A stretch of DNA of 64,000 nt. Source: Acinetobacter phage vB_AbaSt_W16. The first letter of the stretch is position 1. Each line of letters opens with the position of its first letter. The translations under genes were made by a program, and so were the position numbers. A model generated the notes under the pieces. The model did not search any database. It saw only the letters and a list, made by a program, of their open reading frames with translations, and was not told where the DNA came from. Of this stretch, positions 3,412 through 63,504 are shown in pieces. Location: sequence record PP174317.1; one strand, 5' to 3'.

Positions 3412-4736
3412 ATAAAATACACATTTGTTCTTGCTCTTGTGCAGCCAACATATAACAACTGTTGTGCTAAGGCGGCGTCTGCTTTATGCATGCAAGAAGT
3501 ATACAAAAATACAGAATCAACTGTTGAACCTTGTGATTTATGAACAGTTCCCACCGGTAACGCTTTAACTTTCAAGAAACTATTACGTAATTTCCACCAA
3601 TCTTTCCAATTTGGTTTTGGGCCGTGTCCTTTCATTGCTTTAAATTCTGATGCCGCACGGGATAAGTAGAACTGAAATTTATTTTGTTCTTGCTCATCTG
3701 AAATTACTTGGATTGTTGCGACCATATCAGAATCGACGCCTCTAACATCTAGGGCCCAAGCTTTAATTGGTAATTTTTCTGCAAAAGTTTTGATTTCCAG
3801 ATTAACTGTAATTTCTTTACAGTCATGAATGCGCGCTAATTCACCATTATTAAAAATAGTTTCTGTAAACTTTTTACCTTCAAATGAGTGTGTCTTAATT
3901 AAAGGTTCTTGCATTACTAAAACTTCATGTTTAATAAATGGCAATTCAGTTTGATATAAACGCTTACGAATAATAGCATTTAAAGAATCAACTGATTTAT
4001 TTGTATATGCTAACATACGATTATCAAAAAGCGCATCTGCGTCTGGAACAATTTCAAAATACTTTTGCATAAAGTTTGCAACAGATTTTCCAGGGGCATT
4101 TAAATTATGCACTCCGGCACCATCAACAAGATTTTCACGAATCCATGAACCATTACGAATTTCGGTCGCAACTTTAATAATTGGAGCATTTGAACGCATA
4201 ACTTCTGTTAAGTTTGCTTGAACAAAATGTTCATTAAAAAAGAATGCAGACAATTCAGGAATGGATGAACCTGGGGCAACCGGGCGGATTTGTGCAATAT
4301 CACCAAGTCCAATAATTGTACACCAACGTGGCACGGATGTCATTAAAATACGGAATAATTCACGATCATACATTGACACTTCATCACAAATTAATACACG
4401 ACATTCACTAAGATCAGGCGCATCAGATTGTTCAAATGATGTTTGATCTTCATAATTTGTCGGACTAATTTTAAGTAATGAATGGATTGTATGAGCATCC
4501 ATTCCGGCAAGCTTTGAAAGAATTTTCTTGGCCTGGTGTGTAGGTGCAGCAAGCATAACACCCTTTTCACCCGAATCAATTAAATGATTAATTAAAAATT
4601 TTGTTAAAGTTGTTTTACCTGTACCAGCTGGACCATTAATAGTAATATGCTTACCTTGCGTTTGCATTACTTCTAAAGCAGCATTAAATGCTTGTTTTTG
4701 TCCTTCATTCAAGTCATCAAATGTTAAATCGTTCAT
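3408..4736 (-). CDS. dda: Dda DNA helicase (SF1B)
   Basis: Collinear with T4 Dda: TINGPAGTGKTTLTKF (Walker A), CDEVSMYD (Walker B), C-terminal LYVGCTRAR; 442 aa. Confidence 0.92.
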   Translation of the reverse strand: MNDLTFDDLNEGQKQAFNAALEVMQTQGKHITINGPAGTGKTTLTKFLINHLIDSGEKGVMLAAPTHQAKKILSKLAGMDAHTIHSLLKISPTNYEDQTSFEQSDAPDLSECRVLICDEVSMYDRELFRILMTSVPRWCTIIGLGDIAQIRPVAPGSSIPELSAFFFNEHFVQANLTEVMRSNAPIIKVATEIRNGSWIRENLVDGAGVHNLNAPGKSVANFMQKYFEIVPDADALFDNRMLAYTNKSVDSLNAIIRKRLYQTELPFIKHEVLVMQEPLIKTHSFEGKKFTETIFNNGELARIHDCKEITVNLEIKTFAEKLPIKAWALDVRGVDSDMVATIQVISDEQEQNKFQFYLSRAASEFKAMKGHGPKPNWKDWWKLRNSFLKVKALPVGTVHKSQGSTVDSVFLYTSCMHKADAALAQQLLYVGCTRARTNVYFI

Positions 4737-12384: not shown

Positions 12385-12741
12385 CTAAATGTCTTTCGAT
12401 TGCAACGTATCTGTCCAATCTAATGTATCAAAGTCCACGTTTACAAAAGTGAAAACACTATTTGACAGATCTAAATACTTGTCCACATCAGAGTCTGACC
12501 AAATACCTTCCGACAATATTGCCGAAGGCTCATTTTCATAGGCTCGCCATCCTCCCAATTGATCCATCGCTACAAAGTGATAATTTTCTGGAATTTTAGT
12601 CCAGTCAATCAAAATTTTAGAATTGTCCAATTTACATATAAAATTATTGACAATAAGTTCAACTTCTTTACCGTGAAAATTATTAAACTCACTTAATGTT
12701 TCTTCAAGTGATACTTTGATTTGTGCGATTGAAAATTTCAT
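12385..12741 (-). CDS. Hypothetical protein (118 aa)
   Basis: ORF with AAAAGG RBS; preceded by the duplicated motif. Confidence 0.55.
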   Translation of the reverse strand: MKFSIAQIKVSLEETLSEFNNFHGKEVELIVNNFICKLDNSKILIDWTKIPENYHFVAMDQLGGWRAYENEPSAILSEGIWSDSDVDKYLDLSNSVFTFVNVDFDTLDWTDTLQSKDI

Positions 12742-60274: not shown

Positions 60275-60876
60275 AAGTCTACAGCTTCAACAAACTCTTT
60301 GTCATTTTTAATTTCAATATTTGCTGCAGCACATGCTGGTAACGCTTTTTGAAATGCAGGATCATCTCTATATGATTTATCTTCGCCGGCAATAGCAGGT
60401 AATTCGTTTTCAAAATCATCGACATCATTAAACCCTGCAATCTCAGACTCATTTAATTCGAGACCTACATTTTCACGTGGCAATTGAACTCGATCTTTTT
60501 CAGGAATAATCGGATAAGGTTTTAATGTTTCATCAACACATTTTTCAACTTTAACTTGATACTCTTGTAATACAGTTGCGCCGTAATCACTAGACATATC
60601 AATATTTTTCAGTAAGTTTTCAAATTTAGAATTACATACGGCAATAGCTTTAAATGCAATTGAACCATATAATTCTGCGGCTTTATATTCGGCTTCAGTT
60701 TCAAGAGAAAAATTTGTATTAACAGTTGTATGCTCTTGAAGATTTTTTACACCATATTGCATTTCGTTAACAGTAGGAGCTGCTGTAGCTTCTTTATGTG
60801 TACTACATCCAACTAAGCTTAAAGATGCGATTGAAATAGCTAAAAGTAATTTGTTCATGATTATCTCACAATACAT
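60253..60876 (-). CDS. Lipoprotein (about 200 aa; lipobox LVGC)
   Basis: MNKLLLAISIASLSLVGCSTHKE. Confidence 0.6.
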   Translation of the reverse strand: MYCEIIMNKLLLAISIASLSLVGCSTHKEATAAPTVNEMQYGVKNLQEHTTVNTNFSLETEAEYKAAELYGSIAFKAIAVCNSKFENLLKNIDMSSDYGATVLQEYQVKVEKCVDETLKPYPIIPEKDRVQLPRENVGLELNESEIAGFNDVDDFENELPAIAGEDKSYRDDPAFQKALPACAAANIEIKNDKEFVEAVDFCALKAM

Positions 60877-60987
60877 TTATTCATTCATTGGTGCTATTAT
60901 ATAAGCAAAAAATTAAAAGCGTACATATATCAAATGTAAACTTTTGTAACCGAAAAATAATTCAATTATTTTTCAATAAAGGGTTTA

Positions 60988-61017
60988 CAAGTCGGTTGAA
61001 CTGAGCCATAATACACT
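60988..61017 (+). promoter_or_regulatory. T4 early-type promoter GTTTAC-N18-CATAAT for the plus-strand gene
   Basis: gGGTTTACaagtcggttgaactgagcCATAATac, 30 nt upstream of the ATG at 61046. Confidence 0.5.
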
Positions 61018-61045
61018 CATACCAACACAACATGAGTAAATTGAA

Positions 61046-61465
61046 ATGAAAAACTTATTTTTAGTAATGACTGCAAACTTCGAAGTTTCTTATGTATCTA
61101 CTGCACCGGTTGCAGATAATGGAGCTGAAATTGTTGTACGTCAAGATATTCTTAAACATCTTAGTGTTACACAATTGGTTCAAATCGCTAAAAGCATGAA
61201 CCCTGAATTAAAAGTTAATAATAAACAAGCGCGTGAAATCATTCTTGCCGCTATTGATGAAGAAATTGTTAAAATCCCAGTTAAATCGACTGAAACTAAA
61301 ACAGTATCTTCTAAATCAATTTGTTATGCGGCATTTGATTTAATCGATATGGATAATAAAGAAGTTGCACGTTCTACTGTTGAAGCTTTGATTACAGAGC
61401 ACAATATTCCAAAACGTGTTGTTCAATCTTATGCATCAAACTATCGTAAAGCTAAACGCGCATAA
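61046..61465 (+). CDS. Hypothetical protein (139 aa); the only plus-strand gene in the window
   Basis: ORF with GAGTAAA-type RBS; followed by a terminator. Confidence 0.6.
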   Translation: MKNLFLVMTANFEVSYVSTAPVADNGAEIVVRQDILKHLSVTQLVQIAKSMNPELKVNNKQAREIILAAIDEEIVKIPVKSTETKTVSSKSICYAAFDLIDMDNKEVARSTVEALITEHNIPKRVVQSYASNYRKAKRA

Positions 61466-61480
61466 AATTTAAGTATGAAA

Positions 61481-61508
61481 AAACCCGCAAATTGCGGGTT
61501 TTCTTTTA
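61481..61508. terminator. Bidirectional terminator CCCGCAA-tt-TTGCGGG with flanking A and T runs
   Basis: aaaaaaCCCGCaaattGCGGGttttctttt sits between convergent genes. Confidence 0.7.
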
Positions 61509-61600
61509 TTTGGCGGAAAGCAGTGTAGTCGAAACACAACCGATTTAACGGTCCACTCGGTTAGCAGTCGGTGCCAATGACCTCATTGATTTACTTTCCA

Positions 61601-61831
61601 TTATTGAATTACTGCAGTAGGTGTATAAAAATTAGATAATACACTTAAAATCTTATCTAATTCAACTAATGCATGATATCGATTTTTATAAACTGATCTA
61701 TGTTCGGTACATTCAACTTTGATACCAGTTGAAATATGAGTAACTCGAACACCTCTATCGGGCGTATTAACCCAATTACTATGTTTGCCTACTCTAAATG
61801 TATCAATTCTAATATCAGAAGGTAGTAGCAT
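61601..61831 (-). CDS. Release-factor-like (RF-1/ArfB-type domain) mini-protein with GGQ replaced by GKH
   Basis: RVGKHSNWVNTPDRGVRVTHISTGIKVECTEHRSVYKNRYHALVEL aligns to the class-I RF / ArfB catalytic domain (SG.GGQHVNKT.SAVRITH.PTGIVV.CQ.ERSQ.KN...A...L). The Q of GGQ is absent. Confidence 0.55.
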   Translation of the reverse strand: MLLPSDIRIDTFRVGKHSNWVNTPDRGVRVTHISTGIKVECTEHRSVYKNRYHALVELDKILSVLSNFYTPTAVIQ

Positions 61832-61859
61832 TTTAATTTCCTCATTTAAAAATACGAGC

Positions 61860-61957
61860 GGGAATCGAACCCGCTAGCGCCGTATGGTCTTACGCGAACC
61901 ATTCTTTCAATGGAATCGAACCATCTGCAGCCTCCGCCGGCACCTTCCACCAAGGTA
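61860..61957 (-). ncRNA. tRNA-like fragments: two tandem T-arm motifs (GATGG-TTCGATT-CCATT and GCGGG-TTCGATT-CCCGC) without a canonical acceptor stem
   Basis: Perfect T-stem-loops on the minus strand, but no complementary 5'/3' acceptor strands could be found; candidate pseudo-tRNA or small stable RNA. Confidence 0.25.
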
Positions 61958-62407
61958 TCAGGTAATAATATAAATTGGTTTTTGTGGTAATATCGTCTCT
62001 AAATTATCAATAGTTCGACGAATTTTTGCCATCAAGTTTTTATCAACAATTGCGTCAGGTCCAACATTAATAAAAACACGTTCGATTGTTTTAAGGGCAT
62101 CAAATCCACGTAAGGAATTTGCATTTCTATAACCAGTAGAAAAAATAAAACAATCTTGGCCCAAATCAGATTTAAAATTCCGTGCTGCAGGTAAAGACTG
62201 TGCAACATAAAGATCAGTATCTTTATTAAAAATTTCTAAAATATTTTTAGTACAATTAATAGGTGTGCACACATAAATCATACGATTGTAAATGGCATCT
62301 ATAGGTTTATACGTTATTGGAGTTGTGGTTGCAGCTTTCTCTTTTACCTTATGGCATGTAAGATCTAAAAATCGTTGTAACTCATTCATAACATTCCATC
62401 CAAACAT
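61958..62407 (-). CDS. Hypothetical protein (149 aa)
   Basis: ORF. Confidence 0.5.
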   Translation of the reverse strand: MFGWNVMNELQRFLDLTCHKVKEKAATTTPITYKPIDAIYNRMIYVCTPINCTKNILEIFNKDTDLYVAQSLPAARNFKSDLGQDCFIFSTGYRNANSLRGFDALKTIERVFINVGPDAIVDKNLMAKIRRTIDNLETILPQKPIYIIT

Positions 62408-62475
62408 AATAAAAAATTGCCCAGGTTGGTAAGTTCAACCTGGGTCTTACAAGTCCCTTTAGGGAACTATTTGGC

Positions 62476-62547
62476 GGCGTCGCCAAGGACTCGAACCCTG
62501 GATTGCGGATTTGGAATCCACCGTGTTTCCAACTACACTAACGACCC
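62476..62547 (-). tRNA. tRNA-Trp (anticodon CCA), candidate
   Basis: Hand-folded: acceptor GGGTCGT/GCGACGC (one G-G mismatch at 2:71), D-arm GTGT-AGTTGGAA-ACAC, anticodon arm GTGGA-TTCCAAA-TCCGC, T-arm CAGGG-TTCGAGT-CCTTG. Confidence 0.5.
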
Positions 62548-62787
62548 TTAAACTGCAAATGTGCCAGCATGAAATAATCTCAAACACAATATAAAACCTG
62601 TTGTCAACGCAGGAAAGCTTAATGGCATGTCACGATATAAATTGACAAGTGCATGCAAGCTGTTCTTTTTTAATTATATAGTAAGCACCAACAAATTGTG
62701 AAACGGTGGAATGAGTGAGGCAATTTGCTTTACTCAAGTACCTATACTTACTATAGTGTATATTCGTCTTACGAGAAATATACAAAT

Positions 62788-62864
62788 TGGTCTCCGTAGA
62801 ATGATTTGAACATTCGACACCTGCGTCCCAAACGCAGTGCTCTACCAGACTGAGCTATACGGAG
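62788..62864 (-). tRNA. tRNA-Pro (anticodon UGG)
   Basis: Clean cloverleaf: acceptor CTCCGTA/TACGGAG, D-arm GCTC-AGTCTGGTA-GAGC, anticodon arm CTGCG-TTTGGGA-CGCAG, T-arm GAATG-TTCAAAT-CATTC, discriminator A, encoded CCA. Confidence 0.85.
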
Positions 62865-62985
62865 TTAAATTGCCGTGAAATGTCCTTTTATACTTTCGAG
62901 CATTTCACCACTCAATAAGTAAATCTTGAAGCTTTATTTGTTTTACAAGAGGAAACTTCGTCCTGCTTATCAGGCAATTTAAAAA

Positions 62986-63080
62986 TGGCGGAAGGTGAGG
63001 GGGTCGAACCCTCAAGGCGTGTCACCACGCTCGACTGATTTCAAGTCAGCTGCCGTCGCCAGCTTTCGGCTTGACCTTCC
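62986..63080 (-). tRNA. tRNA-Ser (anticodon UGA), long variable arm
   Basis: Acceptor GGAAGGT/ACCTTCC perfect; anticodon loop CTTGAAA; variable arm GCGTG-GTGA-CACGC; T-arm GAGGG-TTCGACC-CCCTC; discriminator G; encoded CCA. Confidence 0.8.
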
Positions 63081-63147
63081 AATAAAATATTGACGACCTA
63101 AGAACCTTTACACCAATAATGGAGACTTAGGACCCTTTACATCAATT

Positions 63148-63226
63148 TGGCTCCCACCGTGAGATTCGAACTCACCTAACCTCGGATTAACAGTCCGGTC
63201 CATGCACCTAGCTCGGATTCGTGGGA
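63148..63226 (-). tRNA. tRNA, probably Asn (anticodon GUU), imperfect fold
   Basis: 76 nt plus CCA; T-arm GTGAG-TTCGAAT-CTCAC; acceptor TCCCACG/GGTGGGA pairs 6 of 7; anticodon arm CCGGA-CTGTTAA-TCCGA has one C-A mismatch; the D-stem is weak. Identity is tentative. Confidence 0.45.
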
Positions 63227-63233
63227 ATAATTC

Positions 63234-63309
63234 TGGTGCCGACACGAGGATTTGAACCCCGGACCCTCTGATTACAAAACAGACGCTCTACCAACTGAGC
63301 TATGACGGC
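63234..63309 (-). tRNA. tRNA-Thr (anticodon UGU)
   Basis: Exactly 76 nt with standard numbering: D-arm GCTC-AGTTGGTA-GAGC, anticodon loop TTTGTAA, T-arm CGGGG-TTCAAAT-CCTCG, encoded CCA; U5-U68 and U31-U39 mismatches. Confidence 0.75.
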
Positions 63310-63504
63310 AAATCATTAATCAAATGAACCCAGGATACAATTCGAATTTTGCGAGGATAAGTCGCTCATCTACCGGTATCGCCAAGATCATTTGATTAAT
63401 GATCTTATACATTTATTTATACAACCCAAAAGGGCACCAGTATGACCACTTGCCGAGAACACAGTGAGTTAAAACTCTTTATGACAAGATTAATAAAATT
63501 TGAT

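What the first reader, a model, noticed from the sequence alone, without database searches (positions are those of the whole stretch)
61601..61831. Release-factor-like mini-protein with GGQ replaced by GKH beside the tRNA cluster
The 76-aa ORF aligns to the catalytic domain of class-I release factors / ArfB (…RITH.PTG..VECQ.ERSQ.KN… becomes RVTHISTGIKVECTEHRSVYKN). Where GGQ should be it reads GKH (RVGKHSNWVNT). A GGQ-less RF domain could still bind the ribosomal A-site or peptidyl-transferase centre without hydrolysing peptidyl-tRNA. It is a candidate translation modulator, for example of stop-codon readthrough or ribosome rescue, and sits next to phage tRNA genes.
Basis: partly seen in the sequence, partly recalled or inferred. 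Interest (0 to 1): 0.6.

Follow-up and report, generated by a model that had tools for sequence, protein, structure and literature searches.

The report
Phage mini release-factor domain without GGQ
A T4-like Acinetobacter phage carries a tiny, conserved copy of the catalytic domain of bacterial translation release factors that has lost the catalytic GGQ loop; it belongs to a large, uncharacterised phage family and is most likely a non-enzymatic binder of the translation machinery rather than a release factor.

Summary
Window 61601-61831 (-) encodes a 76-aa protein, ZZ1p0148 of Acinetobacter phage ZZ1. It passes Pfam RF-1 (PF00472: E 3e-10, 40.5 bits, cut-off 35). It is modelled as the beta-beta-beta-alpha fold of RF1/RF2 domain 3 (pLDDT 84; TM 0.72-0.79).

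GGQ is absent.

This is not a one-off decay.
- All 11 phage homologues I translated lack GGQ.
- 53 GGQ-less sequences were aligned; 51 share the shortened loop and 45 have W/F in place of the His after GGQ.
- The motifs VR(V/I)TH-PTG and RS-H-N(K/R) are kept.
- The loop varies even between sister genera.
- Close orthologue pairs give dN/dS of 0.09-0.15.

The family resembles RF1/RF2 domain 3 (E 5e-24), not ArfB (E 2e-3, partial). It lacks codon-recognition domains and an ArfB-type tail.

The gene lies inside the tRNA array in all eight Twarogvirinae checked, but not in other phages.

The function is untested. My best inference is a catalytically dead RF domain that binds the large-subunit A site/PTC or a partner of it. 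An isolated ArfB GGQ domain does not bind ribosomes, so an anchor or another target is possible. I found no paper describing this family.

The parts
61601..61831 (-). 76-aa ORF (ZZ1p0148): stand-alone RF-1 / bRF-PH domain without GGQ
   Evidence: ORF list. It is 100% identical to the ZZ1 and Henu6 proteins. PF00472 E 3e-10. PHROG 20323 E 1e-37 over its full length. AF2 pLDDT 84. Foldseek to RF1/RF2 domain 3.
61754..61795 (-). Residues 13-26 (RVGKHSNWVNTPDR): the loop equivalent to the RF catalytic loop RxSGxGGQHVNxTxSA. It is one residue shorter and has no GGQ.
   Evidence: Alignments. pLDDT here is lower (block mean 73) than in the core. The loop sequence varies among Twarogvirinae orthologues.
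61772..61783 (-). H17-S18-N19-W20, which lies over G-G-Q-H of RF1. The Trp is the family hallmark.
   Evidence: phmmer alignment. W or F occupies this column in 45 of 53 GGQ-less sequences, preceded by S-[G/N/A].
61724..61750 (-). V28-G36 (VRVTHISTG): the retained RF-domain motif VR(I/V)THxPTG (strand 2 and the turn)
   Evidence: R29, T31, H32 and G36 are invariant across GGQ-less and canonical sequences. H, P, T and G are kept in at least 90% of GGQ-less sequences. ZZ1 has Ser in place of the usual Pro.
61682..61699 (-). R45-N50 (RSVYKN): the retained motif RS(Q)HxN at the start of the long helix (alpha-7 of RFs)
   Evidence: R, S and N are kept in at least 94% of GGQ-less sequences. The Gln that is invariant in canonical RFs drops to 45%. 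The helix spans residues 47-68 in the model.
61604..61630 (-). C-terminal tail F68-Q76 (FYTPTAVIQ): a motif F[YF]xx[TS]xxxx specific to the T4-like Acinetobacter-phage subgroup. It is not basic and is modelled with low confidence.
   Evidence: Alignments. pLDDT block mean 53.
61839..61843 (-). Shine-Dalgarno GAGGA, 7 nt before the ATG
   Evidence: Read directly from the minus strand.
61849..61945 (-). Degenerate tRNA-like remnant immediately upstream of the ORF. It includes a T-arm hairpin plus U-run at 61857-61875.
   Evidence: Found by relaxed ARAGORN only. Terminator-like hit. In sister phages an intact tRNA gene ends about 20 nt before the orthologous start codon.
61511..61599 (-). tRNA-like element (type-II, Ser(CGA)-like, with an encoded 3' GCCA) that starts 2 nt after the ORF stop codon
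   Evidence: Relaxed ARAGORN call. Cloverleaf-like MFE fold, but z-score is only -1.5. Not called at default thresholds or by Rfam.
61480..61502 (.). Palindromic intrinsic terminator that closes the minus-strand tRNA/ORF unit and the convergent plus-strand ORF 61046-61465
   Evidence: Terminator scan and the sequence itself.
62476..63309 (-). Upstream tRNA genes Trp(CCA), Pro(UGG), Ser(UGA) and Thr(UGU) on the same strand
   Evidence: ARAGORN, Rfam and the ZZ1 annotation.

Best explanation
The ORF is a real, expressed-looking gene under purifying selection. It encodes only the core of the peptidyl-hydrolase domain (domain 3) of bacterial class-I release factors: three strands and the long helix.

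It belongs to a large, fast-evolving, largely phage-borne clade (the PHROG 20323 type). In this clade the catalytic GGQ loop has been shortened by one residue and replaced by a variable stretch that usually ends in S-x-W. The scaffold motifs VR(I/V)THxPTG and RSxHxN(K/R) are kept.

Shown:
- homology and fold;
- loss of GGQ;
- family-wide relaxation of the loop;
- conservation of the rest of the domain;
- absence of codon-recognition domains and of an ArfB-type tail.

Inferred:
- It cannot catalyse peptidyl-tRNA hydrolysis and is not a release or rescue factor.
- It acts by binding. Most likely it docks the retained RF-domain surface on the large-subunit A site/PTC region, alone or held there by a partner. 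The mitochondrial mini-RF C12orf65 works this way; that it needs a partner is from my own knowledge.
- Binding there would block access of host RF1/RF2, ArfB or other A-site ligands, modulating termination or rescue in the infected cell without releasing the peptide.

In Twarogvirinae the gene is co-transcribed with the phage tRNA array. That array includes an amber-suppressor tRNA in 5 of the 6 loci checked. The arrangement is compatible with favouring suppressor tRNA over RF1, but it does not show it.
For: Homology and fold:
- PF00472 scores above its gathering cut-off.
- RF1 E 4e-11 for the single sequence; RF1/RF2 E 5e-24 for the family profile.
- AF2 pLDDT 84 with secondary structure E-loop-E-E-H.
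- Foldseek TMq 0.72-0.79 to ribosome-bound RF1/RF2 domain 3.

A functional gene:
- SD plus ATG.
- An intact ORF of 76-79 aa in 9 Twarogvirinae loci.
- dN/dS of 0.09-0.15 for the three unsaturated pairs.

Family-wide loss of GGQ:
- 11 of 11 translated phage homologues lack GGQ.
- 48 of the 150 best cluster representatives lack GGQ.
- Of 53 aligned GGQ-less sequences, the loop is shortened in 51 and W/F is present in 45.
- All 10 multi-domain GGQ-less proteins score best on PHROG 20323.

Selective retention: H32, P34, T35, G36, R45, S46, N50 and L58 are kept in at least 90%. The whole catalytic segment, and the Gln after RS, are relaxed.

Phages carry this form rather than active mini-RFs. E. 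coli ArfB finds only 15 records in the phage collection. The annotated ones are bacterial or mixed assemblies carrying host-type RF or ArfB genes; most of the rest are unannotated short contigs. The GGQ-less type finds 118-131 records, including 64-66 Acinetobacter, 12-15 Pseudomonas, Xanthomonas and Vibrio phages.

Precedents for catalytically dead RF homologues that act by binding the ribosome:
- Balon, a GGQ-less aeRF1 homologue that occupies the A site (PMC10901736).
- Dom34 and MRPS35 (PMC6514570).

Precedent for small phage proteins binding host ribosomes: PMC10914614.
Against: - No experiment exists.
- The isolated GGQ domain of E. coli ArfB (deletion of residues 101-140) shows no ribosome binding (PMC3950681). 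The ZZ1 protein has no basic tail or extra domain. Its C-terminal FYTPTAVIQ tail is neutral.
- The retained polar residues could be needed only for folding.
- tRNA adjacency is confined to one phage subfamily. Twelve of 13 other loci have no tRNA within 2.5-4 kb. Homologues elsewhere sit after a primase or between gp32 and frd.
- TAG is a rare stop in this window (4 of 106), so there is little to read through.
- Monophyly of the GGQ-less clade is suggested by the shared indel and Trp but not proven. By core identity, only 22 of 53 have a GGQ-less nearest neighbour.
Confidence: 0.4

Rival explanations
1. Decoy for a host (or defence) protein that recognises the release-factor GGQ domain. The mini-domain would titrate a partner of RF domain 3 instead of binding the ribosome. 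Candidate partners are the RF glutamine methyltransferase PrmC, the domain 2/4 body of RF1/RF2 (against which domain 3 packs in the closed form), or an immune sensor or toxin aimed at RFs.
For: - The protein is an almost exact structural copy of RF1/RF2 domain 3: 42-45% identity to E. coli RF1 over 64-66 aligned columns. This includes the RF1 chain of the PrmC complex, 2b3t_B.
- A bare GGQ domain does not bind ribosomes.
- The gene sits among small early-type genes in hyperplastic regions. It lies next to a PinA-like protease inhibitor in one T4-like contig and near Acb1 in Twarogvirinae. This is typical of host-takeover and anti-defence genes.
- Evolution is fast: 35-46% identity between sister genera.
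Against: - PrmC engages the GGQ loop itself (my own knowledge of the 2B3T complex, not tested here). The loop is the least conserved part of these proteins.
- No PADLOC defence model resembles the protein or its neighbours.
- No partner is indicated by conserved gene neighbourhood.
Confidence: 0.2
2. tRNA- or RNA-associated protein of tRNA arrays. The domain normally faces the CCA end of P-site tRNA. Here it would bind tRNA, peptidyl-tRNA or tRNA precursors off the ribosome and serve expression, processing or protection of the phage tRNAs.
For: - The gene is embedded in the tRNA array in all eight Twarogvirinae checked, usually about 20 nt after a tRNA gene.
- In ZZ1, tRNA-like remnants abut both ends of the ORF.
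- A conserved aromatic residue (W/F) replaces the catalytic Gln-His and could stack on a base (inference).
Against: - Most family members outside Twarogvirinae are not near tRNAs. Several host phages, for example Pseudomonas phage 73, show no tRNA near the gene.
- I did not check whether the mycobacterial array proteins lack GGQ.
- No RNA-binding activity of an isolated RF domain 3 is known to me.
Confidence: 0.15
3. Still an enzyme: a peptidyl-tRNA hydrolase or release factor that uses an alternative loop (S-N-W), with Asn19 standing in for the catalytic Gln.
For: - In the phmmer register, Asn19 aligns with Gln235 of RF1.
- S-N-W recurs in several Acinetobacter-phage orthologues.
- Several database records annotate orthologues as 'putative peptidyl-tRNA hydrolase'.
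Against: - Both glycines are missing and the loop is shorter.
- The position before W is G, N, A, S, P, R or Q across the family.
- Within the same phage subfamily the loop is ARRW, TTW or deleted (TKPT--C). Some members have almost no loop, for example the tandem-domain protein P0024.
- There is no ribosome anchor.
Confidence: 0.05
4. Decaying fragment of a captured host prfA/prfB gene with no function.
For: - It is short and has lost the catalytic motif.
- It lies next to decayed tRNA genes.
Against: - It is conserved as an intact ORF of the same length across at least five genera, with a good SD.
- dN/dS is 0.09-0.15.
- The fold is confidently predicted.
- The same architecture recurs in unrelated phages.
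Confidence: 0.03

Closest known systems
Domain 3 (GGQ / peptidyl-hydrolase domain) of bacterial RF1 and RF2
   Same: Same fold and clear sequence homology. There is about 45% identity to E. coli RF1 218-274. The motifs DxRIDTFR, VRxTHxPTG and RSxHxN are shared. The family profile gives E 5e-24.
   Different: - Only 76 aa.
- No domain 1, no codon-recognition domains 2/4 (no PF03462) and no switch loop.
- No GGQ, and the loop is one residue shorter and variable.
- NCBIfam prfA and prfB score 49 and 43 bits against cut-offs of 423 and 370.
ArfB (YaeJ) / ICT1 (mL62) / C12orf65 (mtRF-R): small codon-independent GGQ-domain rescue factors
   Same: They are stand-alone RF-PH domain proteins without codon-recognition domains. 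C12orf65 shows that a mini-RF can work on the large subunit with a partner (my own knowledge).
   Different: - Those proteins keep GGQ and have a basic C-terminal extension that is essential for ribosome binding (PMC3950681). The phage protein has neither.
- Sequence similarity to ArfB is marginal (E 2e-3, helix only). Similarity to ICT1 is not significant. C12orf65 gives 40 bits.
- ArfB-type genes were not found in any named, annotated phage genome in the collection searched.
Balon, Dom34/Pelota and most baeRF-1 families: catalytically dead aeRF1-type homologues
   Same: The logic is the same: a release-factor homologue that has lost the catalytic Gln and shows relaxed constraint on the catalytic loop. 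These proteins act, or are proposed to act, by occupying the A site without releasing the peptide (PMC10901736; PMC6514570).
   Different: - The fold is unrelated (RNase H-like aeRF1 middle domain).
- They are three-domain proteins with decoding-centre and EF-Tu/GTPase-binding domains that provide the anchor.
- They are cellular, not viral.
MRPS35 (mS35) and the tick 'extra ICT1 without GGQ'
   Same: They are bRF-PH domains of the bacterial type that lost the catalytic Gln and were kept for a non-catalytic role (PMC6514570; PMC3472500).
   Different: - They are eukaryotic and organellar.
- They derive from ICT1 and have the alpha-i insertion and flanking domains.
- MRPS35 is a structural ribosomal protein.
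Full-length RF1/RF2 genes of stop-codon-recoded phages
   Same: They are phage-encoded release-factor homologues associated with suppressor tRNAs (my own knowledge of the recoded crAss-like and Lak phages). A full-length phage RF1 turned up in viral contig L013, and the viral fold search lists a 356-aa 'Peptide chain release factor 1' of Pseudomonas phage Iggy.
   Different: Those are complete, GGQ-containing, codon-specific factors. ZZ1 shows no sign of recoding: ORFs are long and TAG is simply rare.

Membership tests
Pfam RF-1 domain (PF00472) / bacterial RF peptidyl-hydrolase (bRF-PH) fold | Sequence match to the family HMM above the curated gathering score | tested here: met
   40.5 bits against a cut-off of 35, E 3e-10, residues 4-62.
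Pfam RF-1 domain (PF00472) / bacterial RF peptidyl-hydrolase (bRF-PH) fold | Three-stranded sheet plus a long helix, superposable on RF domain 3 | tested here: met
   AF2 gives E7-12, E27-32, E38-41 and H47-68 with pLDDT 84. Foldseek gives TMq 0.72-0.79 and rmsd 2.2-2.6 Å to RF1/RF2.
Pfam RF-1 domain (PF00472) / bacterial RF peptidyl-hydrolase (bRF-PH) fold | Catalytic uxGxGGQ loop | tested here: not met
   The loop reads RVGKHSNWVN and is one residue shorter.
Class-I release factors RF1/RF2 | Codon-recognition superdomain (PCRF, PF03462; PxT or SPF motif) and N-terminal domain 1 | tested here: not met
   The protein is 76 aa and PF00472 is the only Pfam hit. prfA and prfB equivalog scores of 49 and 43 bits fall far below the cut-offs of 423 and 370.
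Class-I release factors RF1/RF2 | Stop-codon-dependent peptidyl-tRNA hydrolysis | not testable with these tools
   This needs an in vitro release assay. It is predicted to be absent because GGQ and the decoding domains are missing.
ArfB / YaeJ / ICT1 | GGQ motif | tested here: not met
ArfB / YaeJ / ICT1 | Linker plus basic C-terminal helix that enters the empty mRNA channel and is required for ribosome binding | tested here: not met
   The sequence ends 8 residues after the domain helix, with the neutral FYTPTAVIQ. The requirement for the tail comes from PMC3950681.
ArfB / YaeJ / ICT1 | Specific sequence similarity to ArfB rather than to RF1/RF2 | tested here: not met
   The profile gives ArfB 21 bits, partial, E 2e-3, and ICT1 is not significant. 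RF1/RF2 score 87 bits. ArfB is not hit by the single sequence at E 0.01.
PrfH (RtcB-associated release factor H) | TIGR03072 equivalog score, GGQ, and an rtcB neighbour | tested here: not met
   35.7 bits against a cut-off of 166.65. There is no GGQ, and no rtcB appears in the ZZ1 annotation of the region.
PHROG 20323 ('RF-1 domain peptide chain release factor' of phages) | Full-length match to the family profile | tested here: met
   E 1.1e-37, 128.8 bits, residues 1-72 on profile positions 1-73 of 73.
GGQ-less phage RF-domain clade (defined here) | Catalytic loop at least 1 residue shorter than in RFs, no GGQ, and an aromatic residue (W/F) in the column of the His after GGQ | tested here: met
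   ZZ1 has a 15-residue loop against 16, and W20. The clade shows a shorter loop in 51 of 53 and W/F in 45 of 53.
Catalytically dead A-site binders (Balon / Dom34 type): 'works like', not membership | Demonstrated occupancy of the ribosomal A site | not testable with these tools
   This needs sedimentation or cryo-EM. The fold differs from the aeRF1 type, so the protein is not a family member.

The most novel reading that the evidence does not exclude
Phages of many lineages carry a dedicated, catalytically dead mimic of the release-factor hydrolase domain. It docks at the peptidyl-transferase centre/A site of host ribosomes, or on a factor that services it, and holds peptidyl-tRNA unhydrolysed. 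That would block host RF1/RF2 or rescue factors. In the Acinetobacter T4-like phages it would tip the balance toward the co-encoded amber-suppressor tRNA. This would be a viral 'anti-release factor', a class of translation inhibitor not described so far.
Probability: 0.25. Interest if true: 0.8.

Novelty: new variant of a known kind. Interest (0 to 1): 0.55.

Why it matters
Release-factor domains without the catalytic Gln are known from cells (Dom34, Balon, MRPS35). There they turned out to be ribosome rescue, hibernation or structural factors.

This work shows a bacterial-type RF domain stripped to about 70 residues and lacking GGQ. It is maintained by selection in at least 80 sequenced phages and in dozens of metagenomic clusters, while none of the named, annotated phage genomes I found carries the active ArfB type.

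If the protein binds the ribosome, it would be a minimal, naturally evolved probe or inhibitor of the A site/PTC and a new route of phage control over host translation. If it binds something else, it would point to an unknown partner of the RF catalytic domain.

Either way the current database labels ('peptide chain release factor', 'peptidyl-tRNA hydrolase') are functionally misleading. The question can be tested directly with standard release assays, gradients and cryo-EM.

Tried and rejected
- **Word-indexed homologue search with the single protein.** It returned only the protein's own cluster.
- **Same search with the family alignment.** The output was swamped by canonical RF fragments, and only 8 GGQ-less proteins came back.
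- **The search for related loci with the broad alignment.** It failed for lack of a conserved stretch. A narrower alignment gave 10 viral loci of mixed types.
- **Fused domains as functional clues.** Ten multi-domain GGQ-less proteins have no Pfam domain other than RF-1. Their extra regions match only PHROGs of unknown function.
- **Neighbouring genes.** Neighbours in ZZ1 and Berthold have no informative Pfam hits. There are no PADLOC hits.
- **Cluster look-up.** It gave no useful names.
- **Literature.** Six searches for phage GGQ-less or RF-1-domain proteins found no description of the family. The main survey of RF evolution does not mention phages.
- **Promoter scan.** Hits do not exceed the shuffle expectation, so no dedicated promoter is claimed.
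- **dN/dS between genera.** These comparisons are saturated (dS above 1). Only three close pairs are informative, and their counts are small.
- **Monophyly by nearest-neighbour identity.** Inconclusive.
- **Stop-codon recoding in ZZ1.** Rejected: ORFs are continuous and TAG is merely rare.
- **Pseudogene reading.** Rejected on conservation.
- **Residue contacts.** I could not map the retained residues onto rRNA contacts, because no coordinates were available in the sandbox.
Full report
**Where the window comes from.** Window 60800-63400 is 99.6% identical to Acinetobacter phage ZZ1 (NC_018087, 71361-74053). ZZ1 is a T4-like phage of Straboviridae, Twarogvirinae, Zedzedvirus. The ORF of the finding is ZZ1p0148. 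RefSeq already labels it 'RF-1 domain peptide chain release factor'; the GenBank record calls it hypothetical.

**The observation.**
- A GAGGA Shine-Dalgarno lies 7 nt before the ATG, and the stop codon is TAA.
Neither applies.
- PF00472 scores 40.5 bits (gathering cut-off 35, E 3e-10) over residues 4-62.
- phmmer against PDB sequences aligns residues 3-58 to E. coli RF1 218-274 with one gap, E about 4e-11.
- An AlphaFold2 model built on a 40-sequence alignment has mean pLDDT 84. Its elements are strand 7-12, loop, strand 27-32, strand 38-41 and helix 47-68.
- Foldseek places the model on domain 3 of ribosome-bound RF1 and RF2 (TMq 0.72-0.79, rmsd 2.2-2.6 Å, 42-45% identity to RF1).

**The GGQ position.**
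- RF1 reads ...[22 protein letters not shown]... and ZZ1 reads ...FRV-GKHSNWVNTPDRGVRVTH....
- GGQ-H therefore lies over H17-S18-N19-W20. With the gap placed as MAFFT does, it lies over S18-N19-gap-W20.
- All 102 GGQ-containing sequences in my comparison have a 16-residue segment here. ZZ1 has 15.

**This is a family trait.** I translated the homologues from ten other phage genomes:
- Henu6;
- Berthold (RTGGARRWVN);
- Acj9 (CSKQTTWGPL);
- Minot, AbTZA1 and Maestro (AKGASNWIN);
- AB1I1M-1 (TKPT--CMN);
- Pseudomonas phage 73 and Xanthomonas NR08 (KPGASAWVA);
- Vibrio phage 193E37-1 (NLGGWSL).

None has GGQ.

An exhaustive phmmer search of 1.8 billion cluster representatives found 1186 proteins at E up to 1e-3. 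Of the best 150, 48 have no GGQ anywhere. Many of these are 64-130 aa long, or carry the domain at one end of a longer protein.

In an alignment of 53 GGQ-less and 102 GGQ-containing domains:
- The GGQ-less set has a shortened loop in 51 of 53.
- It has W or F in the column of the His that follows GGQ in 45 of 53. This residue is usually preceded by S-[G/N/A].
- It keeps H32, P34, T35, G36, R45, S46, N50 and L58 (ZZ1 numbering) in at least 90%.
- The entire RxSGxGGQHVNxTxSA segment is relaxed. So are the Gln after RS and the Cys-Gln of strand 3, which are invariant in real RFs.

All ten multi-domain GGQ-less proteins I scanned match the ZZ1-type profile PHROG 20323 best, at 49-83 bits. They score lower on the full-length RF and ArfB-like PHROGs.

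The shared deletion and the shared Trp point to one clade. I could not prove monophyly. On core identity, only 22 of 53 have a GGQ-less nearest neighbour. This is expected if a fast-evolving clade is compared with slowly evolving RFs that stay near the ancestral consensus.

**A maintained gene with a dispensable loop.**
- Nine Twarogvirinae loci carry an intact ORF of 76-79 aa.
- The three pairs that are not saturated give dN/dS of 0.13, 0.15 and 0.09. These are Minot/AbTZA1, Minot/Maestro and AbTZA1/Maestro, and the counts are small.
- Between genera the protein is only 35-46% identical, so it evolves fast.
- The loop is the most variable part. It is two residues shorter still in AB1I1M-1. 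It is nearly absent in some metagenomic members, including P0024, a 129-aa protein made of two tandem GGQ-less domains.
- The Acinetobacter T4-like subgroup shares an extra C-terminal motif F[YF]xx[TS]xxxx. It is modelled with low confidence.

**Which RF relative.**
- The family profile hits RF2 and RF1 at E about 5e-24 (87 bits), PrfH at 55 bits and C12orf65 at 40 bits.
- ArfB scores only 21 bits, over the helix alone. ICT1 is not significant.
- NCBIfam ranks prfA, prfB and prfH in that order, all far below their cut-offs.
- The domain is therefore of the RF1/RF2 type, without the alpha-i insertion of ArfB and ICT1. The 'ArfB-like' label is not supported.
The annotated ones are bacterial or mixed assemblies carrying host-type RF or ArfB genes; most of the rest are unannotated short contigs.
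- The GGQ-less queries find 118 and 131 records. These include 64-66 Acinetobacter phages, 12-15 Pseudomonas phages, and Xanthomonas and Vibrio phages.
- The viral structure library shows the fold in further phages: Acinetobacter 133, Aeromonas, Cellulophaga, Mycobacterium Phabba and Rhodococcus.
- As far as this collection shows, named phages carry the dead version, not the active small one.

**Genomic context.**
- In ZZ1 the ORF lies on the same strand as tRNA-Thr, Ser, Pro and Trp (63309-62476) and a 149-aa ORF of unknown function, and downstream of them.
- With relaxed thresholds, ARAGORN finds a degenerate tRNA-like remnant at 61849-61945, ending just before the SD.
- It also finds a type-II tRNA-like element with an encoded GCCA end at 61511-61599, starting 2 nt after the stop codon.
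- A palindromic terminator follows at 61480-61502.
- In Berthold, Acj9, Minot, AB1I1M-1, AbTZA1, Maestro and Henu6 the orthologue is likewise inside the tRNA array. It often starts about 20 nt after a tRNA gene.
- In 5 of 6 Twarogvirinae loci scanned, the same array holds a tRNA with anticodon CUA, an amber suppressor annotated 'tRNA-Pyl'. In ZZ1 this tRNA lies just outside the window.

The tRNA link is not general.
- Twelve of 13 other phage or viral loci have no tRNA within 2.5-4 kb.
- In Pseudomonas phage 73, Xanthomonas NR08 and a related contig, the gene follows the primase.
- In another T4-like contig it lies between gp32 and frd, next to a PinA-like gene.
- TAG is the stop codon of only 4 of 106 long ORFs in the window, and nothing suggests recoding.

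**Mechanism.** What is shown is a conserved RF-domain scaffold with a discarded catalytic loop. The loss of hydrolase activity is an inference, but a strong one. My own knowledge of RF enzymology is that both glycines are needed for the loop backbone geometry. Here the loop is also not conserved within the family.

The remaining question is what the scaffold binds. I favour the large-subunit A site/PTC region at a confidence of 0.4, for three reasons:
- It is the only known ligand of this domain surface.
- The polar residues retained (RS-H-N) lie at the start of the helix. From the fold topology, this is the tip that carries the catalytic loop.
- Dead RF homologues of the other fold do exactly this (Balon: PMC10901736; Dom34 and baeRF-1: PMC6514570).

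The main counter-evidence is experimental. ArfB lacking residues 101-140 does not bind ribosomes at all (PMC3950681), and the ZZ1 protein has no tail. A partner-assisted mode is therefore as likely as direct binding. So is a different target, such as a protein that recognises RF domain 3, or tRNA. I list these as rivals. Residual enzymatic activity and pseudogene status are unlikely.

**Literature and novelty.** Full-text searches found no description of phage RF-domain proteins lacking GGQ. The reference survey of RF evolution lists RF1, RF2, ArfB, PrfH, ICT1, C12orf65 and the GGQ-less MRPS35, but does not mention phages.

The domain assignment itself is already in RefSeq and PHROGs. What is new is that the phage family is systematically GGQ-less and forms a coherent variant. 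I rate it a new variant of a known kind, with interest 0.55. The finding is real, testable and mildly surprising, but the function is unresolved.

Noticed in passing
window 61511-61599 (-): An unannotated tRNA-like element starts 2 nt after the mini-RF stop codon. It has a 7-bp acceptor stem (GGAAAGU/GCUUUCC), a T-arm, a long variable arm and an encoded 3' GCCA. Only relaxed ARAGORN calls it, as Ser(CGA)-like. Default ARAGORN and Rfam do not call it, and the fold z-score is only -1.5. It could be a decayed tRNA or a counterpart of the small stable RNAs at the end of the T4 tRNA cluster (the T4 comparison is from my own knowledge).
   Followed up: partly
window 61849-61945 (-), hairpin 61857-61875: A degenerate tRNA remnant with two GGTTCGATTCC T-loop motifs lies directly upstream of the mini-RF SD. 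The second T-arm plus U-run also scores as a terminator-like site. Sister phages have an intact tRNA (Met or Trp) at this position.
   Followed up: partly
L001 8836-8909 (ZZ1 record 76199-76269, just outside the window); L002 2222-2296; L022 1849-1923; L023 1547-1618; L017 3169-3241: A tRNA with anticodon CUA (amber suppressor, annotated tRNA-Pyl) is present in the same tRNA array as the mini-RF gene in 5 of 6 Twarogvirinae loci. It is not in the Acj9 stretch fetched. TAG ends only 4 of 106 long ORFs in the window, at 12385, 15479, 35543 and 58526 (-).
   Followed up: partly
window 61480-61502: A perfect palindromic terminator (AAAACCCGCAAATTGCGGGTTTT) is shared by the minus-strand tRNA/mini-RF unit and the convergent plus-strand ORF 61046-61465. 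That ORF is one of only 3 plus-strand ORFs among 106 long ORFs in the window.
   Followed up: no
protein P0024 (129 aa, metagenomic); also P0028: These proteins are made of two tandem GGQ-less RF domains with almost no catalytic loop (…SNGHRSFYVRLTHFPTG… and …RNGFRRCSLVRITHLPTG…). The loop is therefore dispensable for whatever the family does.
   Followed up: no
L012 (IMG/VR contig 3300010373_000002), ORF 3911-4396: A viral-contig RF-like protein of about 140 aa reads GPGGRHRN, that is GGR instead of GGQ. It keeps the C-terminal part of a canonical RF, so it is a different kind of catalytic-site change.
   Followed up: no
L018 4658-5199 and L019 2697-3238: In an uncultured T4-like phage, the mini-RF homologue (P0040, 91 aa) overlaps the stop of a PinA-like Lon-protease-inhibitor gene (PF10465). 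It lies between gene 32 and frd, not near tRNAs.
   Followed up: no
L006 3379-3651 (Vibrio phage 193E37-1): A phage-encoded HigA-family antitoxin gene lies about 650 bp downstream of that phage's GGQ-less RF-domain gene. This is a single instance and may be coincidental. It is of interest because HigB toxins act in the ribosomal A site (my own knowledge).
   Followed up: no
window 62420-62444 (-): A terminator-like hairpin (9 bp, 6 GC, followed by a T run) lies between tRNA-Trp and the 149-aa ORF upstream of the mini-RF. The two ORFs may therefore depend on read-through or on a separate promoter.
   Followed up: no
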